The translations under genes were made by a program, and so were the position numbers. The notes under the pieces were generated by a model. It made no database searches. It had not been told where the DNA came from and saw only the letters and a list, made by a program, of their open reading frames with translations. From a virus, in IMG/VR virus record IMGVR_UViG_3300033172_000008: a DNA stretch of 32,882 nt; one strand, written 5' to 3'. Of this stretch, positions 1 to 32,882 are shown one piece after another. Each line of letters opens with the position of its first letter. Within the stretch, counting starts at the first letter, position 1.

Positions 1-127
1 CGAAGTGATTGTAGAGATTACTGACTGGAATAGATATTCCAAACTCTTCCGTTAGCGGTTCCATCAACAGGTCTGACCCATCCACCAACGCTGTACCAAC
101 CGATTTTGCCTGTCCGGCCAAAATCGT
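1..127. repeat. Terminal direct repeat, left copy (assembly overlap of a circular genome)
   Basis: Bases 1-127 are identical to 32756-32882. The repeat runs into the 3' end of the capsid CDS, so it is not an intergenic physical terminus. Unit genome length is 32755 bp. Confidence 0.95.
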
Positions 128-998
128 TCTGGTCATCAGCGTAGTAACGAATCAGGTCAGGTCGGTAGAAGGTGTCATAACCAATAACACTGTTTACGCC
201 AAAAATCGTTGATTTGCTTGCCGTTCCAGCGGCATTCAAGGTGGAAACTCGATGCGGCCCAAATTCCTCTATGAACATAACACCGTTGTACACAGCTACT
301 TCGCCCATGCTGTATACCCCAGAGATTCCAAGGCTGGCGGCACTGGAATAAACCTGTGCTTGACCCTTGATACCATCAAAGATTCCCGGACTTCCAATGC
401 AACGATAGAGACCATCCGAGTAAGGAGCGATGCCCTTAGCTCTAAGGATGGAGACTATCTTAGTCACATGGTAAGGAAGCAACTGACTCACACCAGTTGT
501 ACCAGCGTCAGCAGTTGTAATTTCGCCTACAGTGGTGGCAGTCGTAACAGCAAAACCATTGGTAGTGCTATTGAAGGTGGCACCAATAAGGGCGTTCCGG
601 GTAATCATTGCGTTTCTTGCGATTGTCAGACCAGAAGCACTCATGAGGTCAACGTTGGAAAGCCAGTTAGCAAAGCCACTAATGCGTTCTGCGTAACCGT
701 ATTCCCTGAGGGTGCCTGTTGCCTGAGCAAGACCAGTGGAGTTGCCAGCGGCAATTGCAGTACCTTCGGTAAGGGGAGTTGTTTGAGCCGCTACATCAGT
801 GATGTAACTCGCTTTGAAGGTGTCGCCCAGACCTTCGCCGGAAACTTCAACGTTGCCCCAAGTTTGACCGAGGAATTGTTCCCAAAAAGTGAGCAAGGGA
901 AGGTCCGGTTCAAGGGCAGGAATCCAGTAATCGGGAATAAGGACACTACCGGTAGAACCTTCGGACCAGCGGGGGGTATTCGTGTAATCAGCAGACAT
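18..998 (-). CDS. Major capsid protein (HK97-fold type, assigned by position and composition)
   Basis: 326-aa Gly/Ala/Thr-rich ORF directly downstream of a scaffold-like ORF, the portal and TerL. RBS GAGAGG lies upstream of the ATG at 998. A strong rho-independent terminator follows across the circular junction. Confidence 0.75.
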   Translation of the reverse strand: MSADYTNTPRWSEGSTGSVLIPDYWIPALEPDLPLLTFWEQFLGQTWGNVEVSGEGLGDTFKASYITDVAAQTTPLTEGTAIAAGNSTGLAQATGTLREYGYAERISGFANWLSNVDLMSASGLTIARNAMITRNALIGATFNSTTNGFAVTTATTVGEITTADAGTTGVSQLLPYHVTKIVSILRAKGIAPYSDGLYRCIGSPGIFDGIKGQAQVYSSAASLGISGVYSMGEVAVYNGVMFIEEFGPHRVSTLNAAGTASKSTIFGVNSVIGYDTFYRPDLIRYYADDQNDFGRTGKIGWYSVGGWVRPVDGTANGRVWNIYSSQ

Positions 999-7225: not shown

Positions 7226-7301
7226 TGGTGGAGATGGTGGCAATCGAAGCCACGACATCCTGCTTGCAAAACAGGTACTCTTCCAACTGAGTTACATCCC
7301 C
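7226..7301 (-). tRNA. tRNA-Ala (anticodon UGC), CCA encoded
   Basis: Hand-folded cloverleaf: acceptor GGGGATG/CATCTCC with a G3:U70 pair and A73; D arm ACTC-AGTTGGAA-GAGT; anticodon arm CCTGT-TTTGCAA-GCAGG; variable loop ATGTC; T arm GTGGC-TTCGATT-GCCAC; then ACCA. 76 nt. Confidence 0.88.
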
Positions 7302-9106: not shown

Positions 9107-9571
9107 TTAGTTGTTCCTTTCTATAAGCTCTTGAATGCCATAGTGTATTCGCGATTTCACGGTTCCAAGAGGCAAATCCAACATGGTGGCAATGTCCTGT
9201 AGGGAATAACCCTGAGACCAAGGCACTATGACGGCTCTCTTTTTCTCATCCAACTGTGCAACGAGCTTATTGTATATCATATAATTCTGTACATCTATTT
9301 CGTTGCCAGAATCCTCTTGAAATACTTCCGGTAAGGAAACCTCCACCCCCGCCTTTCGATTGATTCTGGCCCAGTTATTCTTCATTAAAATAAAGAGCCA
9401 ACCGAAGAACTTACCTCTCTCCGGTTGATATTGTGATTCATATTGCAAAGCCCTCAACACACACTCGCCAACCAAATCAGATGCATCCTCCGAGTTACCG
9501 TTGGTTATGTTCATTGCAATTTGGAGCAGTCGGTCATAGCCAACTTCAATTTCTTCTCGAAGGGTCATCAT
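9107..9571 (-). CDS. ECF-type (group IV) sigma-70 family sigma factor
   Basis: 154 aa with only a region-2-like N-domain and a region-4 HTH (YSLQDIATMLDLPLGTVKSRIHYG). Size and two-domain layout are typical of ECF sigmas. Confidence 0.8.
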   Translation of the reverse strand: MMTLREEIEVGYDRLLQIAMNITNGNSEDASDLVGECVLRALQYESQYQPERGKFFGWLFILMKNNWARINRKAGVEVSLPEVFQEDSGNEIDVQNYMIYNKLVAQLDEKKRAVIVPWSQGYSLQDIATMLDLPLGTVKSRIHYGIQELIERNN

Positions 9572-14467: not shown

Positions 14468-15004
14468 ATGTTATATGTAATCACACCTGTGTCTCGACCC
14501 AACAATCTACTTAAGATTGCCGCGAGTGTACCTGAAGAGGTTAAGTGGTGCATCGTGTATGATGTTGGTATTAATGAAAATCCATTCATTGATGAAGAAT
14601 ATGCTGATTATATTTATAGAGCCGATAAAAAAAGTAGTTGGGGACACACCTGTCGCAACTACGCATTGGACCATTTACCCCTACAAGACGGAGATTGGCT
14701 TTATTATCTGGACGATGACAATATCTTTCATCCTGAATTGTTGAACATTAAGTTGGAAAATGAATATTCCTTTATTGCTATGTTGCAATCCTATCAGGGT
14801 AAGGTTCGCTTTCCCACTGTCGAAATTAAAAAAGGTAGATTAGATATGGGTGCATGTCTGTACAACTGGAAGTGGTGCAAGGATGAGCGTTGGACTGCGG
14901 AGTATGAACAAGACTTCAACTACACCAGTAGATGTTTACAACATGCCCCAGCTAAATCGTTGCCTATTGTAGCAAGCTACTACAATGCACTCAGATGGGA
15001 GTAA
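14468..15004 (+). CDS. GT-A-fold glycosyltransferase-like protein
   Basis: 178 aa. N-terminal beta-strand start (MLYVITPVSRP) and a DxD-type motif (YYLDDDN), typical of small GT-A enzymes. Confidence 0.5.
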   Translation: MLYVITPVSRPNNLLKIAASVPEEVKWCIVYDVGINENPFIDEEYADYIYRADKKSSWGHTCRNYALDHLPLQDGDWLYYLDDDNIFHPELLNIKLENEYSFIAMLQSYQGKVRFPTVEIKKGRLDMGACLYNWKWCKDERWTAEYEQDFNYTSRCLQHAPAKSLPIVASYYNALRWE

Positions 15005-15148: not shown

Positions 15149-16054
15149 ATGGCTAAGAAAATTGATTTAACTGGGCAGAAGTTTGGTAAACTGACCATAT
15201 TGGAAGAAGTGGGGCGAACAAAACAAGGCAAGGTCATTTGGAGATGTTTATGTGAGTGCGGAAATTTCGTAGATGTATCATCCATCAGTTTACGAAGTGG
15301 TAACACTCAATCTTGTGGTTGTTATAAACGAGAACAAACCTCCAAACGAAGTCGTATTGATTTAATAGGTCAGAAATTTGGCAGGTTAACCGTCCTTGAG
15401 GATGTAGGGAGGCAAAATAGAAAAGTGGTGTGGAGGTGTTTGTGTGACTGTGGTAACACGGTTAATGTTATAGGGCAGAGTTTACAGAACGGAAACACTA
15501 AATCTTGTAGTTGTATCCGAAATGAAAAAACATCCCAAAGGAGTTATATTAACTTAATTGGATGTGTTTTTGGGAAATTAACGGTTATTGAAGATGTAGG
15601 TCGAAGTAATTATGGTAAAGTTGTTTGGAAATGTCAATGTGAATGTGGTAATACTGTTGATGTAGTGGCGGGGAGTTTACAAAATGGTAGAACTCAATCC
15701 TGTGGTTGCTTACATAAAGAACTATTATCTGAAACTATGTTAGGTGAAAATAACCCCAGTTGGAGAGGTGGTATAACTCCATTAAATGAAGCCGTTAGAA
15801 ATTGTATTCACTATAAAGAGTGGCGAACTTCAATCTTTCAGAGAGATAATTTCACTTGCGTTCATTGTAATGATTCCACAGGTGGAAATTTAATAGCTCA
15901 CCACATCAAGTTCTTCTCGGATATTATGAAGGAGCATAACATCACTACCTTGGAGGAAGCAATTCAGTGCGAGGCTCTCTGGGATGTCTCGAATGGAATA
16001 ACCCTATGCAAGAAGTGCCACAAGAAAGAACACAAAAGAAAGGATTTATTATGA
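15149..16054 (+). CDS. HNH endonuclease with three tandem zinc-ribbon repeats (HNH-1)
   Basis: Three ~64-aa repeats (GQKFGxLTvLEdVGR...WrCxCxCGN...SCGC), then an HNH core (AHHIKFF...NGITLCKKCHKKEH). Paralogue of 31944-32642. Confidence 0.9.
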   Translation: MAKKIDLTGQKFGKLTILEEVGRTKQGKVIWRCLCECGNFVDVSSISLRSGNTQSCGCYKREQTSKRSRIDLIGQKFGRLTVLEDVGRQNRKVVWRCLCDCGNTVNVIGQSLQNGNTKSCSCIRNEKTSQRSYINLIGCVFGKLTVIEDVGRSNYGKVVWKCQCECGNTVDVVAGSLQNGRTQSCGCLHKELLSETMLGENNPSWRGGITPLNEAVRNCIHYKEWRTSIFQRDNFTCVHCNDSTGGNLIAHHIKFFSDIMKEHNITTLEEAIQCEALWDVSNGITLCKKCHKKEHKRKDLL

Positions 16055-17031
16055 GAAAGAATACCGTGTTAGTCATAGGCGACCTCATAGTGGACCTATA
16101 TCGGTTTGGAGAAGTAACTCGAATGTCTCCTGAGGCTCCTATTCCGGTTTTGCTGCACACGAAAGAAGAACGTAAATTGGGAGGGGCTGCAAATGTAGCT
16201 CTAAATTTAACCTCACTTGGCTGTAATGTAATCGTGGCGGGTACAGTAGGAGATGATGTCTATGGTGAATGGGTTGAGAAGGAAATGAAAAATTTTGGAA
16301 TATCCACCGTACTGTTTCGAGACGAAAACCCCACCATTGTCAAGAGACGTTTTGTTGCTGGGGGCCATCAGATATTGCGCGAAGATGTGGAAAAAGTGGA
16401 GGAATCTTCCAAATTGGAAAAGGTTAAATTGGCTGGCATTCGGAGGATTCTGACTGCACACCCACCTTTAAGTGCTGTTGTAATAAGTGATTATGCAAAA
16501 GGGATGTTGAATGGCAACCTGATAAGGGAAATTAAAGAAACTTGCTGGACGTTGAACATCCCAATTTTCGTTGACCCCAAACCAATTCACATGTCTGCCT
16601 ATTGGGGCGTAAATTTTATCAAATTAAATGTCGTGGATTTGATTTCAATTTTTCCGATGTGGAAAGGTGAGGTAGAACCCTACCTGCGAAAGCTTCAGTC
16701 CGAATACATTGACACCGCCAACGCTTATGACACCACATCTGCTTATCCGGGCATTTGGGCATACACTCAAATCATCTGCACTCAAGCTGAGAGGGGTTGT
16801 ATGTATCTGGGTAACAACGGAGTATATAGGGTACCAGCTAATGTCGTGGATGTGGTTGATGTTACCGGAGCCGGAGATGTTTTCCTTGCTGTTTTTGTGG
16901 CCCAAATGCTAAATTACACCTCTGTGGACCGAGCCTTGAGGTTGGCAAATGAAGCTGCCACTGAGAGTTGTAAATTTCGTGGTACTTGGGTCATCCCTAA
17001 GGATTCCAAATATTCAATCAAGAAAGGGTAA
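16051..17031 (+). CDS. hldA: D-glycero-beta-D-manno-heptose-7-phosphate kinase-like (RfaE domain I / HldA family, PfkB fold)
   Basis: Start set at the ATG at 16051 (ATGA overlap with the HNH stop). Motifs match the N-domain of E. coli HldE: VIGDLIVDLY..G...RMSPEAPIPV, GGAANVALNLTSLG, SDYAKG, DPKP, DVTGAGD. Confidence 0.8.
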   Translation: MRKNTVLVIGDLIVDLYRFGEVTRMSPEAPIPVLLHTKEERKLGGAANVALNLTSLGCNVIVAGTVGDDVYGEWVEKEMKNFGISTVLFRDENPTIVKRRFVAGGHQILREDVEKVEESSKLEKVKLAGIRRILTAHPPLSAVVISDYAKGMLNGNLIREIKETCWTLNIPIFVDPKPIHMSAYWGVNFIKLNVVDLISIFPMWKGEVEPYLRKLQSEYIDTANAYDTTSAYPGIWAYTQIICTQAERGCMYLGNNGVYRVPANVVDVVDVTGAGDVFLAVFVAQMLNYTSVDRALRLANEAATESCKFRGTWVIPKDSKYSIKKG

Positions 17032-17034
17032 ATT

Positions 17035-17712
17035 ATGAACATAGTATATGGGTTGCTCACAGGGTCGGGTCGCACTGAACAGGCCCGAGAAATCATTAAA
17101 GCTTGGCATGATGTAAGAATATCCGTGTGGTTGTACACTTGGGATGAACATGACCTTAAAACATTAGGGCCTTTGTGTGACCATGTTTTGTTTGGCCCTA
17201 TGGATTCCTTTGTTATTAATCACAACCGATTGGCCCGGGAATTAGACTGGGACATTTACATTTGTGGAGCAAATGATTTATATCCGGGAACTAATCCTTT
17301 CCTACGAGAGAACTTACTTGATTTGTATGAGAGCTACCCGGATAAGAGTTACTTCATCAATGACGGTTGGCAGAATAGGATTCCGTCTCACCCTATTGTA
17401 CCCCGCCAGTGGTGGTTGAACAGGGATAAGGTTATTCTGGATGAACAATATGAGCATAATTTTGTAGATGATGATTTTTTGGCTGAAGGTCGGGTTAAGG
17501 GAGACATCATTCGTTGCACGGACATCTGCCTCGACCATAGGCAATTTACCCGGATGGGACAACCTGCGGATTTCATTGCACAAAAAGGACAGGAAAGTTT
17601 TGAACGAGACAGAGCCCGGTTCGAAATGAAGTGGAATCCTAAACCTGATAACCCCTACCCTACTGTGTCTCTCGGTTCACTTCATAGTGATTACATCGTT
17701 AGGAAGGTGTAA
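17035..17712 (+). CDS. Hypothetical protein linked to the sugar-kinase gene (possible GT-like)
   Basis: 225 aa. Acidic clusters (GANDLYP, FVDDDF) weakly resemble GT-A motifs. No confident assignment. Confidence 0.55.
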   Translation: MNIVYGLLTGSGRTEQAREIIKAWHDVRISVWLYTWDEHDLKTLGPLCDHVLFGPMDSFVINHNRLARELDWDIYICGANDLYPGTNPFLRENLLDLYESYPDKSYFINDGWQNRIPSHPIVPRQWWLNRDKVILDEQYEHNFVDDDFLAEGRVKGDIIRCTDICLDHRQFTRMGQPADFIAQKGQESFERDRARFEMKWNPKPDNPYPTVSLGSLHSDYIVRKV

Positions 17713-25834: not shown

Positions 25835-26905
25835 CTATTTATCAATTGGTTGCCATGGGTCAGGAATACCATAAGTCTTAATGTAATAACCACTTTTAGC
25901 TGGAGTTGTTCCGGTGGCGGTCATAATCATCTTGACTTTCTGAGTTGCTTCATTCCCCATGTTAGGATTACAACTTGGTACATCTACAATTTTGCCTGTG
26001 AAGTATATATCAGTTTGAGCAAATACAGTTCCAAAGGAGCCTCCATATTCATTAAATTCTGGACCCTGTATACGAACCATGAATGTACCTAAGGTACTAA
26101 CGGGGGTAACGGAAGTTCCCAAACCATCAATGTATACGAAGCGAGAATAAAAATTCTCATCAACCCAAACATCCATTTCCAACGTGGCCTCAAATACTCC
26201 CAAGGTAAAGCCTATAGGTTGTTTGCTTGATGGTCCAAATTGAGTCTGAATGTTATTACTGGATGTAATCTTGAAGCTGGCAGGGTGAAATCGTGTTCCA
26301 TTCCATGAACATGAAATTCCCGGAGCTTGATAGTAATGTCTCTGGTAGGATGTGTCGGAAGCAAATACCACCCCGGACACAGAAGAGTTGGGGGTAACAT
26401 TCTGGCTGTAGAATGTGGGAGTCAACATAACAGGTTGACCCACTTTCCAATCTACAACTAATTTATTCATGATGCACTTCTCAAACACATAAGCCCTACC
26501 TAAGCCCAGACCAATGTCTCGGGCAATAGTGAATCCACCCAAGGTTCCCGGTTGACCTGAGTAAGGGAAATGGTAATCCCAGCCAGGTTCAGGAGGAGTA
26601 GGACAAGAAGATTCCGCATTTTGAAAATGTGAATTCAGCAACCTATTCAATGTCTTCTGCCAGTTGTCTGCATCAAACCAAAAAGGAGTAGCACCTAAGG
26701 CACCCTGAGGTTGGACCTTAAGTATTCTAAGGTCTTCTTGGCGATGGAACCTATTTCCCAACACAGACCGGGCGTATGGAACAGCACCAACGGATAGGGA
26801 ATCCGGTTGGTCACTACACCAACGGAACCCGGAAGTTCCCAGTGTACCCAACGGTCTTTCCCATGCCAAGTTAATACTGTTCTGCCATCCGGCGATTATT
26901 GCCAT
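25835..26905 (-). CDS. Tail tube protein, paralogue 2
   Basis: 356 aa. Shares blocks with 26917-27921: GALGAxP, LNxHFQ, GQPxMxTPTF, QAPxIS..WNG....PASF.IxSxNN. Confidence 0.65.
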   Translation of the reverse strand: MAIIAGWQNSINLAWERPLGTLGTSGFRWCSDQPDSLSVGAVPYARSVLGNRFHRQEDLRILKVQPQGALGATPFWFDADNWQKTLNRLLNSHFQNAESSCPTPPEPGWDYHFPYSGQPGTLGGFTIARDIGLGLGRAYVFEKCIMNKLVVDWKVGQPVMLTPTFYSQNVTPNSSVSGVVFASDTSYQRHYYQAPGISCSWNGTRFHPASFKITSSNNIQTQFGPSSKQPIGFTLGVFEATLEMDVWVDENFYSRFVYIDGLGTSVTPVSTLGTFMVRIQGPEFNEYGGSFGTVFAQTDIYFTGKIVDVPSCNPNMGNEATQKVKMIMTATGTTPAKSGYYIKTYGIPDPWQPIDK

Positions 26906-26916
26906 TAGGTAACTCC

Positions 26917-27921
26917 TTAGCCCAGAAGACTATCTACATCTTGTGTTAAGGTAAGCACTGGAAGAGAAGTATCAGCCATAACCCTAAGGTTAATGGTGTC
27001 AACCAAATCACCAGTATTAGCATTCAAATCGTTGGGAGCTTCAACTCTGCAATACGCAGTGTAGGTCATGGTTACAGCCGCAGACCCACCCAATGTTCCA
27101 TAGGATGTGTCCATTGTAGCAGTAATCACAACAGTACCCAGTGAGTTGTTATAAAATGGGGCTACCCAATCAGTATCCGCATTTTCATTTCTCCACACAC
27201 TCAATTCGATATTGCCTGAGTAGTCGCCTACTACGAAGCCTTTACGACCCTTGGCATCCCCAGCCTGTTTGTCCGGGGTGTTGTTCCTCGAAGAGATGGT
27301 GAAGCTTGCGGGGTAAATTTCGCTTCCATTCCATTGAACGGAAATGTTAGGGGCTTGAAGGTATCCACCAGCGGAAGGAGTAGGAATTGATTCAGGCATG
27401 GTCCCGGCATTGCTGGATTCCATGGCCTTGAAGGTAGGGGTGAACATTATAGGCTGACCGGATTCCCAAGCAATTTCCAGTTCGTCCACTATGCAACCAA
27501 GGTAGAGATGGGCCCGACTATCCACACCCGTGTCTTTCAACACAGACAGTGTAAACCAAGCGTCATCATCCAACCCAGAAGTAGGAGTGAATGTATAGGT
27601 GTAAGGGCTTGCGGTACCGGAAGTACCTACGGACTGAAAGTGAGCATTGAGGATGGACAGGAATTTAGCATCCGCTGTACCTAAGGCAATAGGGGCCGCA
27701 CCCAAAGCTCCACCCGGAAGATTTTGGCACTCTCTAAGACCTGAAGACAACTGACCTCTGGCACCCCTAAGTACCTTGATGTCAATTGGTTCTTCGCCAA
27801 AAGTTAGGGAGTCGCTTTCTTCGGAGTCCCACAGGAAGGCATAACTCGAAGTCTCAGTTCCCATTCCGGCTTCGGTCCCAAAAACGACACATGTTAAAAA
27901 CGAACTAATTGTTCTGGACAT
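26917..27921 (-). CDS. Tail tube protein, paralogue 1
   Basis: 334 aa, located between the neck proteins and the chaperones. Paralogous to 25835-26905. Confidence 0.65.
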   Translation of the reverse strand: MSRTISSFLTCVVFGTEAGMGTETSSYAFLWDSEESDSLTFGEEPIDIKVLRGARGQLSSGLRECQNLPGGALGAAPIALGTADAKFLSILNAHFQSVGTSGTASPYTYTFTPTSGLDDDAWFTLSVLKDTGVDSRAHLYLGCIVDELEIAWESGQPIMFTPTFKAMESSNAGTMPESIPTPSAGGYLQAPNISVQWNGSEIYPASFTISSRNNTPDKQAGDAKGRKGFVVGDYSGNIELSVWRNENADTDWVAPFYNNSLGTVVITATMDTSYGTLGGSAAVTMTYTAYCRVEAPNDLNANTGDLVDTINLRVMADTSLPVLTLTQDVDSLLG

Positions 27922-27934
27922 GATTTAACCTCTC

Positions 27935-28420
27935 TTATTCCAAAATTTTGCGTATCAAGTACGCTTCGATTTCTTTACGTATTAATTTGATGTTTGCTTC
28001 GGAAAAACCCGTTATGATGTTCTTCCACTTATCTGCCGCCACCTGAGCTATTGTCCTATTACGGTCACCCTTAGGTCCAACCTTAACACTGGTGTCAGTA
28101 ATTTCAGCTGCATAGGATTTCCTCAATTCTTCAGTGTCAGTCAATCTTATCTTGTCTGATGTTACCTTTTCACCGGATGGTCTGGTGTTATACTTCTTGG
28201 ACCACCTGCCCCCAAATTTAGTTTCCTCTGCATTGGATTTCCATTTGTGCCCATTGGCATCACTGCCTGTGGCGAAACGAAGTGCGACGAAATTTAACAT
28301 CATCTTTTCAATTTGCTTTATGACACCCTCTCGGATGTCCTTGCTATCAAAAGTCTTCTGAACTTTCTTCAGTGACTTAGGTAGGTCTCGGAAATTAATA
28401 GCTGGTAGTGAGGTAGCCAT
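27935..28420 (-). CDS. Head-tail joining / tail-completion protein (HK97 gp10 / Mu G-like pattern)
   Basis: 161 aa. RFATGSDANGHKWK...LTDTEELRKS resembles the virion-morphogenesis family pattern. Confidence 0.55.
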   Translation of the reverse strand: MATSLPAINFRDLPKSLKKVQKTFDSKDIREGVIKQIEKMMLNFVALRFATGSDANGHKWKSNAEETKFGGRWSKKYNTRPSGEKVTSDKIRLTDTEELRKSYAAEITDTSVKVGPKGDRNRTIAQVAADKWKNIITGFSEANIKLIRKEIEAYLIRKILE

Positions 28421-29178
28421 TACCTCTCCAAAAAGGTTGTGTATCCAGCAACTCGTCTGGACTTGGAATCTCTTTCAGGGTAACAACTAATTTGCCATTG
28501 CTGGCCTACTTTATAGGAGTCAATGTATTTGTAGAGGAATCTAATTTCAACACCAAAGCTGAGAGGTATGAAGTTCCAGTCACATTTGACATTCTCTCTA
28601 TACCATCCTTCATCCTCGTCCGTCTTCCAGCGAAAAGTGGAGGTTGCTAAATTAGACCCTACTGTTTGAAGTTCAATGGTGAAGATTCGGGGGTACAGGT
28701 CTTCGGTGTAGTAGCAACCCGGCACTCCATAGTTGGATTCAATCCACTCCGAATTTGGAGTAATGGCCTCTGTTCCAGTCCCTACGGTAAGGGCAGTAGG
28801 CATACCAATTCCAATTTGTCCCACAGTCGGTTCAGGGTCAATTCGTCTGCGCCCTGATTTGAAATCTTCAAGAATGCCCTCGGCATCGGTATGGAAGACT
28901 GTCCAGTAACCTTCGGCTCCCTCTTTGTTTGCCAGCATCCTCCGAGACAACGCCAGATATACGGCTTCACTTGCCGTGGCTAAACGAATAAAGAAGTTGG
29001 GGGAGGTGCCAGTGGCAGGTAGGGACAATGATGGAGTAGGGTTGAACTCACAGATGGATGTATACACCCACTCGGAAGCTTGTTCCAGAATGGAATCCAA
29101 TATGGCTCCACTGGCTAAAGCGGAAAAGTCTTCGTAAAGCACCTCACAATCTGTGATGCCAATGAATTTTCTCGCCAT
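28420..29178 (-). CDS. Head-tail adaptor-like protein with C-terminal extension
   Basis: 252 aa. The N-terminus (ITDCEVLYEDF...LEQASEWV) resembles gp6-type connector proteins. First gene after the GT cassette. Confidence 0.5.
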   Translation of the reverse strand: MARKFIGITDCEVLYEDFSALASGAILDSILEQASEWVYTSICEFNPTPSLSLPATGTSPNFFIRLATASEAVYLALSRRMLANKEGAEGYWTVFHTDAEGILEDFKSGRRRIDPEPTVGQIGIGMPTALTVGTGTEAITPNSEWIESNYGVPGCYYTEDLYPRIFTIELQTVGSNLATSTFRWKTDEDEGWYRENVKCDWNFIPLSFGVEIRFLYKYIDSYKVGQQWQISCYPERDSKSRRVAGYTTFLER

Positions 29179-29191
29179 GTTTTACCTCTGA

Positions 29192-29887
29192 TTAAATGTT
29201 TTCTAAGATGGTTTTTATTAGGGATGTATACTTACGGTGAAAAGTCTGTTGGTCTAATTTGAACGTAAGCTCATCACGTTTCTTCTCTTCACTTATAAAT
29301 ATACAATTCTCCGTGAAAAGGTTCATCTTCTCCGGGGCAAAGAACCCAAGACCATGGTCAAGACCTACTTCAAACCCAGCCCAACGACATCTCAGAGTAT
29401 AATCAGTGAGAATGAAGAACTCCTTCAAGGCTGTGTCGAACTGACCCACATCCAATAAGGCTCGATAGGGTACTGAAATCATGTTGTGGTCAAAACAATT
29501 TACAGGTCTTATGGCATCACTCTGGTGGTAACCACTGGCATACTTGATGATGGGGAATCCTGATTGAATTTCGGCTGTCAATTCCACGGACTGATTAACC
29601 CTATCCATGAGGGTAGGGGAAATTACCATATCTTGATTCAACTGTTCAACATGTCTCTCGAAATCGAAGCAAGCAGTGTTGGGAATGAACCCAGCCCTGA
29701 CCACCATGAGGTTGGCCTTTTCGTCCAGACAAATTTCCCTACACAAGTTAAAGGCATCAGACATTTTACCGCTATAGGCAAGGATGTTCAACATGTCTTC
29801 AGATACTATTTCCTTCATGGCTTCAAAGGTCTGATTGGCCTTTTCATCCTCGATGGAATTCTTGATGATGAATATTTTAGTGTGCAT
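29192..29887 (-). CDS. GT-A/GT2-like glycosyltransferase (divergent)
   Basis: 231 aa from the ATG at 29887, which overlaps the GT9 stop. The C-terminal segment YRALLDVGQFD...TDYTLRCRWAGFEV matches the usual GT2 C-terminal pattern. Confidence 0.45.
   Translation of the reverse strand: MHTKIFIIKNSIEDEKANQTFEAMKEIVSEDMLNILAYSGKMSDAFNLCREICLDEKANLMVVRAGFIPNTACFDFERHVEQLNQDMVISPTLMDRVNQSVELTAEIQSGFPIIKYASGYHQSDAIRPVNCFDHNMISVPYRALLDVGQFDTALKEFFILTDYTLRCRWAGFEVGLDHGLGFFAPEKMNLFTENCIFISEEKKRDELTFKLDQQTFHRKYTSLIKTILENI
29296..29326 (-). promoter_or_regulatory. Weaker intragenic ATGAACC-N18-TATTTA element upstream of the connector/tail genes
   Basis: Minus strand reads ATGAACC ttttcacggagaattgta TATTTA. 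It lies 117 nt upstream of the ATG at 29178. Confidence 0.3.
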
Positions 29888-31133
29888 CAGTCTCACCTTT
29901 CAACCAACTGTAATTTGCGGTTAAGACATCCACTAAATCAATGGACGCTGTGCAATAGGGTATTTCCATCCTAAGGGATTCTAATTTCTGGAAAGCATTA
30001 TTTACCTTCGCATTAAGGGTGGCCTCCGATGTACACTTAAAATAGGTGATTGGGTCTTTGGTAGGGAGAGGCTTCACAGGAGGAAGTCCAGCTTGCGCCC
30101 TAACCATGGGTTCCATAGGGAGCATCTCCAACAACTGTCTTTCCTCAGGGTCTAATTTAGACCAAGCTTCAACCTGCTTACGAGGACAGTCCCTTGTAAT
30201 TTGGTAGCACTTACATACCTGATTACCCAATGTAACTTGCGAATCTACGGTGATTTCATATCGGTAATACTTGGATATGGTGTGTGCCGGGACAAAGGTG
30301 TAATAGGTTATGTGTCTTATGCCCAGAGCTTCAGCCAAGTGAGACACTCCGGTATCGGCAGTAATGGCAAATTGGCACTGTTCCAGCAGAGCCGCAGTAG
30401 CCCTAATAGGTTTGATTTCCTTGGGGATTTCAATTTTCATCCCATTGATGGTCAAGAAACCACCACCTTGAGGTCTCTCTTGAGTGGGAACTTCCTGATT
30501 CCAAAGTAGAATACTGTGTCCCTTTTCAATGAGGAATCTGCTTATACCTAAGGGGGAGATGGTCTTAGCTGCACTGGAAGATGTGGTCTGGATAAACACA
30601 GGCTTGGTTCTGCACTTACTCAATATGGATTTAGCCCAAGCTCTTTCCTCTTCCCTCACGAAATAGTTGGGTCTCTTCTCATCATCCGACATGGTGTAAG
30701 GGTTAATTCCAGCCCAATTTAGATGGTTGTCATAGGTGTTGATGTAAGTGGAATTCTGAGTAGGACTAATTTCCGGGTGCTGAGTGTTTGCCTCGATGAC
30801 GCGGAAGTAGTTCGCGACATTAAAGGGTCGCCAAGGTCGGTTTAATTTAGTTTTATAGAGTCGGTACAATGCCATGTCAGCAATGTATACACCTTGATAG
30901 TCAACCAAATTAATGGGATGTCCATTAACATCAGCTTTGTATGTGCCGAATCTTGAACTTAAGTAGATGTGCTTGATGTAAGGGTTGTTCTCCAACACAG
31001 GCAAGCCCATGTCATTTACCACTACATCAACCTGATAGCCTAATTCAGTCAGCTTCTTTGCCACTGGGGTGAGGAATAAAGCATCGCCTATTCCACCATA
31101 TCGAAGCAGTAGGAACCTTTCTTTGGAAGCCAT
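29877..31133 (-). CDS. GT9-family heptosyltransferase-like glycosyltransferase with Cys-rich C-terminal extension
   Basis: 418 aa. N-terminal LLLRYGGIGDALFLTPVAKKL and TADTGVSHLAEALGI are the hallmark GT9 (WaaC/WaaF-type) motifs. There is an extra CKCYQITRDC cluster. Confidence 0.75.
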   Translation of the reverse strand: MASKERFLLLRYGGIGDALFLTPVAKKLTELGYQVDVVVNDMGLPVLENNPYIKHIYLSSRFGTYKADVNGHPINLVDYQGVYIADMALYRLYKTKLNRPWRPFNVANYFRVIEANTQHPEISPTQNSTYINTYDNHLNWAGINPYTMSDDEKRPNYFVREEERAWAKSILSKCRTKPVFIQTTSSSAAKTISPLGISRFLIEKGHSILLWNQEVPTQERPQGGGFLTINGMKIEIPKEIKPIRATAALLEQCQFAITADTGVSHLAEALGIRHITYYTFVPAHTISKYYRYEITVDSQVTLGNQVCKCYQITRDCPRKQVEAWSKLDPEERQLLEMLPMEPMVRAQAGLPPVKPLPTKDPITYFKCTSEATLNAKVNNAFQKLESLRMEIPYCTASIDLVDVLTANYSWLKGETDAH

Positions 31134-31867
31134 TATATTTCTCCTTTTTCTCTTTGACTAATCAAGGTTTGGACACTCTTGTCTCGATGAACTCCGGGAC
31201 CGTAGCACATACCATCCCTCATGGTTGCACTCTTACGGTCTGATTCTTTGGTCTTACGATGTTCCATGTACATTTCTTCATTAAGGTAAGCCCATGGAGC
31301 TAAAGGATTTGGGTGTCTGTGGGGGACATTCTCGAATACCAACACCGGACCCAAAGCAATTCTAAATTGCCAATCCCTACCCAGAGGGTCATCCGGGGAT
31401 TTGTATAGGTCTACAATTTCCTCAGCATCCCAGAAGTTCTTGCGGTGAATCATCAATGCTCTAACATCAAAGGTGCGAAGCATTTCGTTGGCCTTCTTAT
31501 TCACCTTGCGGAAAATAGGTTCACTCACAAACTCATCAACATCAATCCTGAACAACCACTCCTGAGGTCTAATTTGATACAGCATGTTGTAGTGTGGCTC
31601 ACCCAACCGTTCAAATCTTTCCATGGAGATGTAATTTACATTCTTATAGGAACGAGCAATCTCTTGCGTTCTATCTGTGGATGCTTGGTCTATCAGATAA
31701 ATTTTTGCATATTTATGAAATTCAAGCCAAGCAGGTAGGCGTTCTTCCTCGTTGTAAACCACAATCCCAATGCTCATGGGGAATTCTTTTAACACATTGT
31801 TTTTGACCGTGGACTGCTTGGTAGCAGGTATTTTGGGTCTTCCTTTTTTATTGGACTTAGTAGACAT
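31133..31867 (-). CDS. GT2-family glycosyltransferase
   Basis: 244 aa from the ATG at 31867, with GGGAG 5 nt upstream. Motifs SIGIVVYNEEERL, LIDQASTDRTQEIA and RIDVDEF (DxD). Confidence 0.7.
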   Translation of the reverse strand: MSTKSNKKGRPKIPATKQSTVKNNVLKEFPMSIGIVVYNEEERLPAWLEFHKYAKIYLIDQASTDRTQEIARSYKNVNYISMERFERLGEPHYNMLYQIRPQEWLFRIDVDEFVSEPIFRKVNKKANEMLRTFDVRALMIHRKNFWDAEEIVDLYKSPDDPLGRDWQFRIALGPVLVFENVPHRHPNPLAPWAYLNEEMYMEHRKTKESDRKSATMRDGMCYGPGVHRDKSVQTLISQREKGEI

Positions 31868-31916: not shown

Positions 31917-31947
31917 ATAATAGTCAAAACCGACCTGATAGGTTCAT
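31917..31947 (-). promoter_or_regulatory. Promoter-like element ATGAACC-N18-TATTAT upstream of the GT cassette
   Basis: Minus strand reads ATGAACC tatcaggtcggttttgac TATTAT. Its -35 overlaps the HNH-2 stop codon. Confidence 0.5.
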
Positions 31948-32642
31948 TTTCTTTTGTGTTCTTCTCGATGACATTTCCTACATAGGGTGAGTCCATTGTT
32001 AGTGTCCCACAATTCCTTACATGCTTCAGCCTCTTCAAGGGTTTGAATATTGTGTTCATTCATGATGACAGAAAAGAATTTAATATGATGGGCAATTAAT
32101 TTTCCCCCTCGGGTCTGGCAATGCTGACAAGTATAATGGTCTCTCTCAAAAACTAATTTCCTCCACTCCCGATACTGAATACACTTTCTCACCGTTTCGT
32201 TTAAAGAGGTAACCCCACCCTTCCAATTACTGTTATTTGAACCCTTGTGAGTTTCAGATAACCGTTGTTTATTAAAACAACCACAGGATTGTGTGTGTCC
32301 ATTTTTTAAACTTCCGGCTTGAACTTTTATTTTCTTTCCGCACTCACATAGACATAGCCATAATACTCCACCATTTTGTCGGCCTACATCTTCCAATACC
32401 ACAAGCCGCCCAAATTTCTGTCCCACAATATTCTGATAACTTAAATTAGACGCAGTATCAACACTCAAACAACCACAAGACTTTGTATGTCCACACCTAA
32501 GTTTAGTGGAGGGTATAACAACACTATTGCCACACTCACATTGACATAACCACAATCTTGTTCTTTGCTTATTTCGACCTACATCTTCCAGTGCGGTCAA
32601 CCTGCCAAATTTCTGTCCCGTTAAATCAATTTTCATGAACAT
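31944..32642 (-). CDS. HNH endonuclease with two tandem zinc-ribbon repeats (HNH-2)
   Basis: 232 aa (the start may be the ATG at 32636). It has the same repeat and HNH core as 15149-16054, and the C-terminal ~100 aa are very similar. Confidence 0.9.
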   Translation of the reverse strand: MFMKIDLTGQKFGRLTALEDVGRNKQRTRLWLCQCECGNSVVIPSTKLRCGHTKSCGCLSVDTASNLSYQNIVGQKFGRLVVLEDVGRQNGGVLWLCLCECGKKIKVQAGSLKNGHTQSCGCFNKQRLSETHKGSNNSNWKGGVTSLNETVRKCIQYREWRKLVFERDHYTCQHCQTRGGKLIAHHIKFFSVIMNEHNIQTLEEAEACKELWDTNNGLTLCRKCHREEHKRK

Positions 32643-32726: not shown

Positions 32727-32751
32727 GAGGCCGGGACTGATGCCCGGCCTC
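32727..32751 (-). terminator. Rho-independent terminator of the capsid transcript
   Basis: GAGGCCGGG-catcagt-CCCGGCCTC (9-bp GC-rich stem), followed by TTCTTATTTAT on the minus strand. On the circular map it lies about 21 nt downstream of the capsid stop. Confidence 0.85.
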
Positions 32752-32755
32752 GATG

Positions 32756-32882
32756 CGAAGTGATTGTAGAGATTACTGACTGGAATAGATATTCCAAACT
32801 CTTCCGTTAGCGGTTCCATCAACAGGTCTGACCCATCCACCAACGCTGTACCAACCGATTTTGCCTGTCCGGCCAAAATCGT
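32756..32882. repeat. Terminal direct repeat, right copy (duplicates the 3' end of the capsid CDS)
   Basis: Identical to 1-127 when read base by base. 32773-32882 is a redundant partial copy of the capsid gene 3' end. Confidence 0.95.

What the first reader, a model, noticed from the sequence alone, without database searches (positions are those of the whole stretch)
29192..31867. Three-gene glycosyltransferase cassette inserted between the capsid and connector genes, including a GT9 with a Cys cluster
GT2 (31133-31867), a GT9 heptosyltransferase-like gene (29877-31133) and a divergent GT-A-like gene (29192-29887) overlap one another's stops and starts. They sit inside the late structural operon, between the major capsid gene and the head-tail adaptor.

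Together with 14468-15004 and the kinase, confidently sugar-related genes occupy about 4.2 kb, or roughly 13% of the genome.

The placement and late co-expression are what one would expect for glycosylation of virion proteins, a phenomenon known for some actinophages (established knowledge). LPS-core remodelling to exclude superinfecting phages is the alternative.

The GT9 carries an extra C-terminal region with CKCYQITRDC plus two further Cys. I do not recall this in WaaC/WaaF. Protein-targeting heptosyltransferases (the TibC/Aah type) do have a Cys-based metal finger, so a protein substrate is conceivable (speculative).
Basis: partly seen in the sequence, partly recalled or inferred. Interest (0 to 1): 0.7.

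Follow-up and report, generated by a model that had tools for sequence, protein, structure and literature searches.

The report
Phage head-module protein glycosylation gene cassette
An uncultured 32.8-kb tailed phage, like all of its relatives we could find, carries sugar-transferase genes directly behind its major capsid gene, including an unusual heptose-transferase-like enzyme with four invariant cysteines, which most likely decorate virion proteins with sugars rather than remodel the host cell surface.

Summary
The three genes are real. They lie on the minus strand, are translationally coupled, and follow the major capsid gene. The window is a complete, circularly permuted 32,755-bp genome, so the capsid gene at 18-998 adjoins the window's right end.

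- **Gene 1 (31133-31867)** is a GT2. Its family profile matches almost only protein/peptide glycosyltransferases among solved GT2 structures: SunS 4e-14, GmaR 2e-13, ThuS 2e-10. The next GT2 scores 1e-4.
- **Gene 2 (29877-31133)** is a very divergent, phage-only GT9-like enzyme. It keeps the catalytic and ADP-heptose motifs and has four invariant cysteines (C307, C309, C316, C394).
- **Gene 3 (29192-29887)** belongs to a GT2-like family but has lost the DxD motif.

The cassette is not an insertion. The capsid-GT2-GT9-GT-A-g252 order is conserved across a deep clade. GT9 co-diverges with portal and capsid and is more conserved than either. More distant capsid relatives also carry sugar genes at this site.

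A heptose-7-phosphate-kinase-like gene and a GT43-like gene lie elsewhere in the genome.

Best reading: cytoplasmic glycosylation of virion proteins, probably with heptose (confidence 0.55). LPS remodelling, a non-virion protein target and DNA glycosylation are weaker rivals. The acceptor is inferred, not shown. I class it as a new variant of a known kind.

The parts
18..998 (-). Major capsid protein (326 aa). It lies immediately upstream of the cassette in the circular genome and is a candidate acceptor. It has a Thr/Ser-rich patch at aa 144-173.
   Evidence: phrog_1357 major head protein, 9.1e-12. Homologues precede the GT genes in all related loci. S/T patch.
32727..32751 (-). Terminator-like GC-rich hairpin plus T-tract just after the capsid gene. 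It is likely an attenuator, so downstream enzyme genes would be made at lower levels than the capsid protein.
   Evidence: Stem of 9 pairs (8 GC) followed by TTCTTATTTA. This is a consensus match only.
31944..32642 (-). HNH homing-endonuclease-like gene between the capsid gene and GT2. It is the only probable true insertion at this locus.
   Evidence: phrog_374 3e-44, PF13391. It is 59% identical to the second HNH at 15149-16054. No HNH homologue was detected at this site in the related loci with MCP and GT9 held.
31133..31867 (-). GT2 (GT-A) glycosyltransferase of the SunS/ThuS/GmaR-like protein/peptide-glycosylating subgroup. DxD motif = D109-V-D111. It has its own C-terminal region of about 110 aa with conserved DWQxR, PH and EHxR motifs.
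   Evidence: PF13704 and PF00535 above cut-off. TIGR04195 SunS is the best NCBIfam hit. Family profile A6 against PDB: SunS 3.9e-14, GmaR 2.1e-13, ThuS 2.3e-10, next GT2 1.2e-4.
29877..31133 (-). Divergent GT9-like GT-B enzyme (418 aa), a predicted heptosyltransferase. Conserved features: catalytic GD17; S186/S187 and K/R190; D260-T261-G-x-S-H265; a beta-hairpin at 208-229; and a C-terminal extension of about 110 aa with invariant C307, C309, C316 and C394.
   Evidence: PF01075 26.6 bits (>22). 24-member phage-only family and alignment A1. AF2 pLDDT 90. Foldseek hits 3tov, WaaF, TibC and WaaC. DTGxxH aligns to WaaC 261-266.
29192..29887 (-). Third gene (231 aa). It is a member of a GT2-like GT-A family that always follows the GT9. 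In this phage and its closest relatives the NDD (DxD) and SDSDY motifs are lost, so it is probably non-catalytic or mechanistically altered.
   Evidence: Alignment A2 and Pfam hits in 6 of 11 homologues. Motif loss confirmed in the window, L036, L007 and L019. No direct hit for the window copy.
28420..29178 (-). Conserved 252-aa protein of unknown function that always follows the cassette. It may be a head-tail joining or head-associated protein, and it is a possible acceptor.
   Evidence: Syntenic homologues at 26-53% identity. No Pfam, PHROG or PDB hit, even at family level. AF2 single-sequence model unusable.
27935..28420 (-). Neck / tail-completion-like protein (161 aa).
   Evidence: Weak hits: phrog_26 0.0032 and PF05069 0.0093.
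25835..27921 (-). Two paralogous tail-tube-like genes (26917-27921 and 25835-26905). They are candidate acceptors.
   Evidence: PF18906 1.4e-5 and 1.6e-4; phrog_290 1.7e-9.
14468..15004 (+). Small GT-A glycosyltransferase-like protein (178 aa) with GT43-like motifs (ITPxxRPxNL, QRN-type, YLDDDN). It sits in the oppositely oriented early/middle operon, next to the kinase.
   Evidence: No direct family hit. 504 representative relatives. Invariant D82/D84 with D83 nearly invariant (DDD). Members hit PF03360 (GT43) and are fused to GT2, methyltransferase or TPR domains.
16006..17031 (+). [quoted passage not shown] The start codon is uncertain: the ORF opens at 15967, JGI aa, and the sister phage has 321 aa.
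   Evidence: PF00294 6.6e-28. TIGR02198 6.8e-67 but 226 bits against a cut-off of 345. Homologues are named HldA/HldE in diderm phyla; the sister phage copy is 56% identical.
17035..17712 (+). 225-aa protein of unknown function, conserved next to the kinase in the sister phage. It may belong to the sugar-supply block.
   Evidence: No Pfam, PHROG, NCBIfam or PDB hit. A 225-aa gene follows the kinase in L035.

Best explanation
The cassette is a phage-encoded, cytoplasmic protein-glycosylation pathway. It belongs to the head-morphogenesis module and decorates one or more virion proteins late in infection. The major capsid protein, encoded directly upstream, is the prime candidate. The tail-tube proteins and g252 are alternatives.

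**Proposed steps (all inferred)**
1. The SunS/GmaR-like GT2 recognises the folded or assembling protein and attaches the first sugar to Ser/Thr.
2. The GT9-like enzyme uses ADP-heptose to add heptose, either onto that sugar or directly onto the protein as TibC/AAH do. Host ADP-heptose synthesis is boosted at the kinase step by the phage HldA-like kinase.
3. The four invariant cysteines of the GT9 form a structural metal site (Zn or Fe). This site holds the C-terminal helical extension used for acceptor recognition or oligomerisation.
4. The third GT-A-like protein has lost its DxD motif in this phage. It acts as a non-catalytic partner or by a changed mechanism. In relatives it is a normal GT.
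5. The GT43-like g178 may extend the glycan.

**Shown versus inferred**
- Shown: gene identities, conserved motifs, synteny and co-divergence.
- Inferred: the donor, the acceptor, the order of steps and the metal binding.
For: 1. **The GT2 groups with protein glycosyltransferases.** The family profile hits SunS 3.9e-14, GmaR 2.1e-13 and ThuS 2.3e-10. All other solved GT2s score 1e-4 or worse. The best NCBIfam hit is also SunS. The GmaR GT domain GlcNAcylates flagellin (PMC9638930).

2. **Conserved position.** In GT9-anchored loci (12 viral plus L005, L019, L036) the order terL-portal-g219-g160-scaffold-MCP-[GT2]-variable-GT9-[GT-A]-g252-neck-tube is kept, even where MCP identity is only 24-30%.

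3. **An independent MCP-anchored search gives the same picture.** It returned only loci that carry GT genes just after MCP wherever enough sequence is held. These include GT4-type and methyltransferase-GT9-like fusions in MCP relatives of 23-28% identity.

4. **Co-divergence.** GT9 pairwise identities track portal (r=0.80, Mantel p about 2e-4) and MCP (r=0.69, p about 6e-4). GT9 is more conserved (mean 40%) than either (34%). This is the behaviour of a core module gene, not a moron. GC content is the same as the genome's.

5. **Phage-only family.** Only 24 clusters exist among 5.8 billion proteins. The single hit among 185,579 species genomes is a 3.6-kb contig that also carries the g3-like and g252 genes of this phage clade.

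6. **GT9 enzyme motifs are intact.** GD17, S186/S187-K/R190, DTGxxH and four invariant Cys are present. The S-x3-K and Asp positions mirror TibC T226/K230 and D110.

7. **No Wzx/Wzy/WaaL/initiating-transferase family hit.** None was found among the cassette ORFs that were scanned. The relatives' cassettes add soluble tailoring enzymes instead: methyl-, formyl- and aminotransferases, an epimerase and a radical SAM enzyme.

8. **No lysogeny module.** No integrase was found in the 32.8-kb genome, so lysogenic seroconversion is unlikely.

9. **Precedent.** Capsid and tail-tube glycosylation by phage GTs is known in mycobacteriophages (Freeman et al. 2023, as cited in PMC12619734 and PMC10877033).
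Against: - No direct evidence exists for any acceptor.
- The GT2 similarity to SunS/GmaR covers only the first 110 or so residues of the GT-A domain. The phage protein lacks their TPR substrate-binding domain.
- At sequence level the only solved relative of the GT9 is the LPS enzyme WaaC, and weakly.
- The kinase's nearest cellular homologues come from diderm phyla that make heptose for LPS. An LPS acceptor is therefore available in the likely host.
- The kinase is not universal in the clade. It was not seen in 13 kb of relative L034.
- The capsid and tube proteins lack the obvious Ser/Thr-rich C-terminal tails reported for mycobacteriophages. They have only internal S/T-rich patches.
Confidence: 0.55

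Rival explanations
1. Host-envelope glycan remodelling. The GT9 and its GT-A partners modify the LPS inner core (or another heptose-containing surface glycan) of the infected cell. The purpose would be to block superinfection or to stop progeny re-adsorbing to debris. The kinase would feed ADP-heptose into this pathway.
For: - GT9 is the LPS heptosyltransferase family. The only sequence-level PDB and NCBIfam hits of the GT9 are WaaC, RfaC, WaaQ and heptosyltransferase III.
- Kinase homologues come from LPS-bearing phyla: Bacteroidota, Gemmatimonadota, Nitrospirota, KSB1 and Cloacimonadota.
- Variable tailoring enzymes at the same site in relatives resemble O-antigen or surface-glycan diversity.
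Against: - The scores are far below the equivalog cut-offs (26 against 185 bits).
- The family is phage-only and co-diverges with portal and capsid as a core head-module gene.
- The accompanying GT2 groups with protein glycosyltransferases.
- No integrase or lysogeny module is present.
- No flippase, ligase or polymerase family hit among the cassette ORFs scanned.
- The pI of the first 170 residues ranges from 5.5 to 9.9 across the family. From my recollection, not checked here, Kdo2-lipid A binding would call for a consistently basic N-lobe.
Confidence: 0.2
2. Glycosylation of a non-virion protein or peptide. The target could be a host surface or receptor protein (flagellin, pilin, an autotransporter-like adhesin), a host factor, or a small phage-encoded Cys-rich peptide, in the manner of SunS/ThuS glycocins.
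For: - SunS and ThuS glycosylate peptides, and GmaR glycosylates flagellin.
- TibC/AAH-type GT9 enzymes glycosylate host adhesins.
- Relatives carry small Cys-rich ORFs between GT2 and GT9.
Against: - The window itself has no such small ORF between GT2 and GT9.
- The strict linkage to the capsid and neck genes, and the co-divergence with them, is what one expects if the partner is a structural protein.
- No autotransporter-like substrate gene is adjacent.
Confidence: 0.12
3. DNA hypermodification. The GTs would glycosylate hydroxymethylated bases of the phage genome, including with heptose, to evade restriction.
For: Phage GT clusters that put hexose, HexNAc, Kdo or heptose on 5hmC are documented, some near structural genes (bioRxiv 10.1101/2023.12.21.572611).
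Against: - No thymidylate-synthase-like hydroxymethylase, C5-methyltransferase or TET/5mYOX homologue was found among the window's ORFs.
- The documented heptose-adding DNA GT is T4 beta-GT-like, not GT9-like.
- The genes sit in the late structural operon.
Confidence: 0.05

Closest known systems
Mycobacteriophage virion glycosylation (Che8-type; Freeman et al. 2023, Cell Host Microbe 31:1216; read only through citing papers PMC12619734 and PMC10877033)
   Same: Phage-encoded glycosyltransferases, with methyltransferases in some relatives, are proposed to decorate capsid and tail-tube subunits in the cytoplasm.
   Different: - The host here is probably a diderm, not an actinobacterium.
- The enzymes are a SunS/GmaR-like GT2 plus a Cys4 GT9-like enzyme, with heptose as the predicted sugar.
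- The genes are a conserved core of the head module across a deep clade.
- No S/T-rich C-terminal tails are seen.
- Nothing has been shown biochemically here.
BAHT family protein heptosyltransferases TibC/AAH (PDB 4RAP/4RB4; PMC4358343)
   Same: - GT9-type GT-B catalytic core (Foldseek E 2e-7).
- Asp base about 12 residues into the N-lobe.
- A T/S-x3-K phosphate-binding motif.
- From the DSSP string only: a beta-hairpin in the C-lobe, few (about four) N-lobe strands, and a four-Cys cluster after the last C-lobe strands.
   Different: - No N-terminal beta-barrel.
- Cys spacing is CxC-x6-C-x77-C rather than C339-x2-C342...C358...C370.
- The profile search does not detect TibC, even at E<=10.
- No adjacent autotransporter gene.
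- The metal and the oligomeric state are unknown.
LPS-core heptosyltransferases WaaC/WaaF/WaaQ (GT9; PDB 2H1H, 1PSW)
   Same: GT-B fold, the GD catalytic motif and DTGxxH, which aligns to WaaC 261-266.
   Different: - About 100 residues longer, with an N-lobe insertion and a Cys4 C-terminal extension.
- Scores of 12-26 bits against equivalog cut-offs of 170-467.
- Phage-only distribution within a structural operon.
SunS / ThuS / GmaR protein- and peptide-glycosylating GT2 enzymes (PDB 7MSN, 7MSK, 22AO)
   Same: The N-terminal GT-A nucleotide-sugar-binding half matches them about 10 orders of magnitude better than any other solved GT2. A DxD motif is present.
   Different: The phage protein has 244 aa and no TPR domain. 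Instead it has a clade-specific C-terminal region of about 110 aa.
Chlorovirus PBCV-1 capsid glycosylation by virus-encoded GTs (established knowledge)
   Same: A virus supplies its own cytoplasmic glycosylation machinery for its major capsid protein. A PBCV-1 protein (Q89398) is among the weak GT9-fold matches.
   Different: It is a eukaryotic giant virus with unrelated glycans and enzymes.

Membership tests
CAZy GT9 / Pfam PF01075 (heptosyltransferase family) | Score above Pfam's gathering threshold | tested here: met
   26.6 bits against 22, but only residues 245-281 are matched. 16 of 24 family members carry a precomputed PF01075 hit.
CAZy GT9 / Pfam PF01075 (heptosyltransferase family) | GT-B two-Rossmann fold most similar to solved GT9 enzymes | tested here: met
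   AF2 pLDDT 90. The top Foldseek PDB hits are all GT9: 3tov 3e-9, WaaF 1e-7, TibC 2e-7, WaaC 8e-6.
CAZy GT9 / Pfam PF01075 (heptosyltransferase family) | Catalytic Asp in the N-terminal G-D motif and a DTGxxH nucleotide-sugar motif in the C-lobe | tested here: met
   G16-D17, D260-T261 and H265 are invariant in 24 sequences. The motif aligns to WaaC 261-266. The N-terminal GD aligns to 3tov 'LGD'.
CAZy GT9 / Pfam PF01075 (heptosyltransferase family) | Use of ADP-heptose as donor | not testable with these tools
   Inferred only, from the motifs and from the co-encoded HldA-like kinase. From general knowledge of CAZy (not checked here), GT9 also includes some non-heptosyl transferases.
LPS heptosyltransferase I/II/III (WaaC/WaaF/WaaQ equivalogs) | NCBIfam equivalog score above the curated cut-off | tested here: not met
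   TIGR02193 26.2 against 185.3; TIGR02201 20.1 against 170.2; PRK10964 15.7 against 437.
LPS heptosyltransferase I/II/III (WaaC/WaaF/WaaQ equivalogs) | Encoded in cellular genomes within LPS-core gene clusters | tested here: not met
   The family was found only on phage-like contigs. There was one hit among 185,579 species genomes, a 3.6-kb contig that also carries the g3-like and g252 genes of this phage clade.
BAHT (TibC/AAH) protein heptosyltransferases | N-terminal flattened beta-barrel domain (TibC residues 1-97) | tested here: not met
   The GT-B N-lobe starts at residue 6 (beta1 6-10, then the GGxGD loop). The TibC description is from PMC4358343.
BAHT (TibC/AAH) protein heptosyltransferases | Four-Cys iron finger inserted in the C-lobe | tested here: inconclusive
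   Four invariant Cys sit in the topologically equivalent place, after the last C-lobe strands. The spacing differs: C307-x-C309-x6-C316...C394 against C339, C342, C358 and C370. The metal and the 3-D clustering could not be tested.
BAHT (TibC/AAH) protein heptosyltransferases | Detectable sequence homology to TibC/AAH | tested here: not met
   Neither the single sequence nor the family profile finds TibC in PDB at E<=10. Only the fold-level match exists.
BAHT (TibC/AAH) protein heptosyltransferases | Dodecameric ring; gene adjacent to an autotransporter substrate | tested here: not met
   No autotransporter gene is in the window. The neighbours are the capsid gene and g252. The oligomeric state is not testable here.
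SunS/ThuS/GmaR-like protein/peptide GT2 | Specific sequence similarity of the GT-A domain to this subgroup | tested here: met
   Profile A6: SunS 3.9e-14, GmaR 2.1e-13, ThuS 2.3e-10, next GT2 1.2e-4. Single sequence: 7e-5.
SunS/ThuS/GmaR-like protein/peptide GT2 | C-terminal TPR-type substrate-recognition domain | tested here: not met
   The protein has 244 aa. Pfam finds no TPR. The matches end at about residue 135.
SunS/ThuS/GmaR-like protein/peptide GT2 | NCBIfam TIGR04195 equivalog cut-off | tested here: not met
   26.2 bits against a cut-off of 350.
Phage virion-glycosylation systems (actinophage type) | Glycans covalently attached to capsid or tail-tube subunits | not testable with these tools
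   This needs MS or glycostaining of virions or of co-expressed proteins.
Phage virion-glycosylation systems (actinophage type) | Phage-encoded GTs, with or without tailoring enzymes, linked to structural genes | tested here: met
   This was seen in the window and in all related loci with sequence held downstream of MCP.
HldA / RfaE domain I heptose-7-phosphate kinase (for 16006-17031) | TIGR02198 equivalog-domain cut-off | tested here: inconclusive
   It is by far the best hit (6.8e-67, full length), but scores 225.8 bits against a cut-off of 345. Homologues at 31-39% identity are named heptose-7-P kinase or HldE.
GT2-like GT-A (for the third gene 29192-29887) | DxD donor/metal-binding motif | tested here: not met
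   The family's N-D-D is replaced by R-A-G in the window. The replacements are L-A-G, Q-P-G and R-S-G in L036, L007 and L019.

The most novel reading that the evidence does not exclude
The GT9-like proteins are a previously unrecognised, phage-specific family of metal-finger protein heptosyltransferases, either a sister of or convergent with the BAHT enzymes TibC/AAH. They would heptosylate the HK97-type capsid, or another virion protein, as a near-obligatory step of head morphogenesis in a whole clade of phages of Gram-negative bacteria. This would be the first heptose-glycosylated virions, and the first glycosyltransferase that behaves as a core head-module gene.
Probability: 0.3. Interest if true: 0.8.

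Novelty: new variant of a known kind. Interest (0 to 1): 0.6.

Why it matters
Virion glycosylation in phages has so far been demonstrated only for some actinobacteriophages, where it alters immune recognition.

If this cassette glycosylates virion proteins, the phenomenon extends to a deep, uncultured clade that probably infects Gram-negative hosts. In that clade the glycosyltransferases are as conserved as the portal and capsid proteins. The glycan's tailoring enzymes (methyl-, formyl-, amino- and perhaps sulfo-transferases) vary from phage to phage.

It would also add a new family of protein-directed GT9 enzymes with a conserved four-cysteine site. Such enzymes could be useful for glyco-engineering.

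The hypothesis can be tested without culturing the phage. E. coli makes ADP-heptose, so co-expression of the capsid protein with the cassette should reveal any modification.

Tried and rejected
- **Known phages.** Nucleotide and protein searches of the cassette and the GT9 against 50,697 GenBank phage records found no match.
- **Third gene.** The homologue search returned only itself. I rescued it by taking the syntenic ORFs from related loci.
- **MCP alignment.** The 10-sequence alignment was too divergent for a locus scan. A 5-sequence subset worked.
- **Kinase co-occurrence.**
  - The single-protein locus scan found nothing.
  - The homologue search found the sister phage.
  - Extending relative L014 by an exact-match DNA search showed no kinase in 13 kb.
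- **g252.**
  - There was no hit in Pfam, PHROGs or PDB, either as a single sequence or at family level.
  - The single-sequence AF2 model was useless, with pLDDT 31.
  - The 'head-tail adaptor' label therefore stays unverified.
- **g225.** No PDB hit.
- **Cys geometry.** I could not measure Cys-Cys distances in the GT9 model because coordinates are not exposed.
- **Moron insertion rejected.** The composition matches the genome, and the GT9 co-diverges with portal and MCP.
- **Lysogenic seroconversion rejected.** No integrase was found.
- **N-lobe charge.** Its pI ranges from 5.5 to 9.9 across the family. This is only weak evidence against an LPS acceptor.
- **S/T-rich patches.** They are present in MCP, tube334 and the tape-measure protein, but they do not discriminate between candidate acceptors.

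Full report
**What the window is**

The window has a 127-nt terminal direct repeat, so it is a complete, circularly permuted genome of 32,755 bp. The same phage was assembled as 32,896-bp contigs (141-nt overlap) in other samples. The GT9 protein is carried on 19 contigs.

It is a siphovirus-like phage with no nucleotide or protein match for the cassette in 50,697 GenBank phage records.

The minus-strand late operon reads as follows:
- terminase large subunit (5632-4334) and portal (4318-2828)
- two unknown genes, a scaffold-like gene and the major capsid protein (998-18; phrog_1357, 9e-12)
- then, across the window ends: a terminator-like hairpin (32751-32727) and an HNH endonuclease gene (32642-31944)
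- the three genes of the finding
- a conserved 252-aa gene, a neck-like gene, two tail-tube paralogues, chaperones, the tape measure and distal tail genes

The three ORFs are translationally coupled. GT2 and GT9 overlap by one base in TAATG. GT9 and the third gene overlap by 11 nt. Each has a Shine-Dalgarno-like motif. Base composition is the same as the rest of the genome.

**Gene 1 (31133-31867)**

This is a GT2 by Pfam. I built a profile from its syntenic homologues (A6) and searched all solved structures with it.
- SunS scored 3.9e-14, GmaR 2.1e-13 and ThuS 2.3e-10.
- The next GT2 scored only 1.2e-4.
- NCBIfam's best hit is also the SunS family.

These three enzymes glycosylate peptides or proteins. 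GmaR's N-terminal domain puts GlcNAc on flagellin (PMC9638930).

The match covers only the nucleotide-sugar half of the domain. The phage protein has its own C-terminal region of about 110 aa instead of a TPR domain.

**Gene 2 (29877-31133)**

This gene passes the Pfam GT9 threshold on a short stretch.

*Family and distribution*
- Its family has only 24 clusters among 5.8 billion proteins.
- It has a single hit among 185,579 species genomes. That hit is a 3.6-kb contig binned as Nanoarchaeota, which also carries the clade's third gene and g252. The family is therefore phage-specific.

*Conserved residues (A1)*
- G16-D17, the catalytic Asp position of GT9 enzymes
- S186/S187 with K/R190, which matches TibC T226/K230 on the beta-phosphate
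- D260-T261...H265, which aligns to the WaaC DTGLSH motif
- four invariant cysteines: C307, C309, C316 and C394
- C367 is not conserved

*Structure and similarity*
- The AF2 model is confident, with pLDDT 90.
- Its best PDB neighbours are all GT9: 3tov, WaaF, TibC and WaaC. Their scores are similar and modest, with TM 0.4-0.58.
- At sequence level only WaaC is seen, weakly. TibC is not seen at all.
- NCBIfam scores are 12-26 bits against cut-offs of 170-467.
- It is therefore neither a WaaC/F/Q orthologue nor a BAHT member.

*Comparison with TibC*
- Shared positions: a beta-hairpin in the C-lobe (208-229), and a four-Cys cluster after the last C-lobe strands where TibC has its iron finger.
- Differences: no TibC N-terminal beta-barrel, and a different Cys spacing.
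- This comparison rests on the DSSP string and residue numbering only.
- I could not test whether the cysteines meet in space.

**Gene 3 (29192-29887)**

This gene has no direct hit anywhere. Nearly every related phage has a 207-263-aa gene in the same position. Aligned together, these form a GT2-like family with N-D-D and SDSDYxxRAR motifs. Six of the eleven members hit PF13641 or PF00535.

In the window and its three closest relatives both motifs are replaced, for example NDD by RAG. Other positions stay conserved. The copy here is a degenerate GT-A, probably non-catalytic or mechanistically altered.

**The cassette is a core feature, not an insertion**

In 12 viral contigs found with the GT9 profile, plus L005, L019 and L036, the order is terL-portal-g219-g160-scaffold-MCP-[GT2]-variable genes-GT9-[GT-A]-g252-neck-tube. 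This order holds even where MCP identity falls to 24-30%.

An independent search anchored on the capsid protein gave the same result. Wherever sequence downstream of MCP was held, it returned only loci with GT genes right after MCP.

It also reached MCP relatives of 23-28% identity. Their sugar genes at this site are:
- a GT4 with an oxidoreductase, an epimerase/dehydratase, a methyltransferase and a DegT aminotransferase (L028)
- the same GT4 (L029, L033)
- methyltransferase-GT9-like fusions that keep a CxCxxC...C cluster, together with a GT2 and a B12-radical-SAM enzyme (L031, L032)

GT9 pairwise identities correlate with those of portal (r=0.80, Mantel p about 2e-4) and MCP (r=0.69, p about 6e-4). 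GT9 is on average more conserved (40%) than either (34%). This is the signature of a vertically inherited module gene under strong constraint.

The only likely insertion at the locus is the HNH gene. Its 59%-identical paralogue sits next to the other sugar block. That second HNH is absent from the sister phage.

**Other sugar genes**

All three lie on the plus strand.
- *14468-15004.* It belongs to a family of about 500 representatives with an invariant DDD and GT43-like motifs. Members are often fused to GT2, methyltransferase or TPR domains.
- *The kinase.* It is full-length similar to RfaE domain I / HldA (6.8e-67, below the trusted cut-off). Its cellular homologues (31-39% identity) are heptose-7-phosphate kinases of Bacteroidota, Gemmatimonadota, KSB1, Nitrospirota and Cloacimonadota. 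This suggests a diderm host that makes ADP-heptose.
- *Distribution of the block.* The sister phage keeps the GT-A, kinase and g225 genes adjacent. A more distant relative seems to lack the kinase.

**Interpretation**

The best-supported model is cytoplasmic glycosylation of virion proteins.

*Evidence for*
- a protein-type GT2
- a phage-only GT9-like enzyme with intact catalytic motifs
- strict linkage and co-divergence with the capsid and neck genes
- soluble tailoring enzymes at the same site in relatives
- no flippase, ligase or polymerase family hit among the cassette ORFs scanned
- no integrase
- precedent in mycobacteriophages

*Rivals*
- LPS remodelling remains possible, because the fold is GT9 and the host probably has heptose-containing LPS.
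- DNA glycosylation is unlikely. The genome has no hydroxymethylase, C5-methyltransferase or TET homologue. The known DNA heptosyl-GT is T4-beta-GT-like.
- A non-virion protein or peptide target cannot be excluded.

*Limits*
- The acceptor, the donor, the order of action and the metal site are all inferred.
- The capsid protein has an internal Thr/Ser-rich patch (aa 144-173). So do one tube protein and the tape measure. This does not discriminate between candidates.

**Verdict**

I class it as a new variant of a known kind: phage virion glycosylation, here with a SunS/GmaR-like GT2 and a novel Cys4 GT9-like enzyme as core head-module genes. It is directly testable by co-expression in E. coli.

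Noticed in passing
window 1-127 and 32756-32882: An exact 127-nt terminal direct repeat. The contig is a circular assembly of a complete 32,755-bp genome, matched by 32,896-bp contigs with a 141-nt overlap in ENA samples.
   Followed up: yes
window 31944-32642 (-) and 15149-16054 (+): Two paralogous HNH endonuclease genes, 59% identical, with repeated Cys-rich N-terminal modules. One sits immediately upstream of GT2. The other sits between the GT43-like gene and the kinase. The sister phage L035 lacks the second one. They are probably homing endonucleases.
   Followed up: partly
window 32727-32751 (-): A strong terminator-like hairpin directly after the major capsid gene. It may attenuate transcription into the enzyme and tail genes.
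   Followed up: no
window 28420-29178 (-): A conserved 252-aa protein that always follows the glycosyltransferase genes. It has no detectable homology to any Pfam, PHROG or PDB entry, even at family level. The single-sequence AF2 model failed.
   Followed up: partly
window 26917-27921 and 25835-26905 (-): Two tandem tail-tube paralogues. The pair is conserved in several relatives (L010, L014, L017).
   Followed up: no
window 23090-25033 (-), aa 493-522: The tape-measure protein contains a run of ten threonines followed by an S/T/P-rich linker.
   Followed up: no
window 7226-7301 (-): A single tRNA-Ala(TGC) gene lies between the 316-aa Ig-like protein gene and the terminase-small-like gene.
   Followed up: no
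window 9107-9571 (-): A phage-encoded sigma-70-family factor (phrog_1740, 1.4e-17). It is also present in relatives L034 and L035.
   Followed up: no
L007 9289-9995; L010 7422-8120; L005 7366-7671, 7634-8767, 9447-10004; L008 6627-7106: Relatives carry extra genes between GT2 and GT9. These include small Cys-rich zinc-ribbon-like ORFs and ORFs with a 'GPQRSGT' P-loop resembling sulfotransferases. L005 also has a formyltransferase and a Methyltransf_24 gene.
   Followed up: no
L028 8407-13455; L032 6333-10196; L031 9405-11006: Phages whose capsid protein is only 23-28% identical also have sugar clusters right after the capsid gene. These include a GT4 with a Gfo/Idh/MocA oxidoreductase, an epimerase, a methyltransferase and a DegT aminotransferase (L028). 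L032 has a GT2, a methyltransferase-GT9-like fusion and a B12-radical-SAM enzyme; L031 has the methyltransferase-GT9-like fusion.
   Followed up: partly
L019 (JAGLZG010000049.1, 3578 bp): A contig binned into a 'Nanoarchaeota' MAG carries GT9, the GT-A-like gene and g252 of this phage clade (47-53% identity). It is almost certainly a mis-binned phage fragment.
   Followed up: partly
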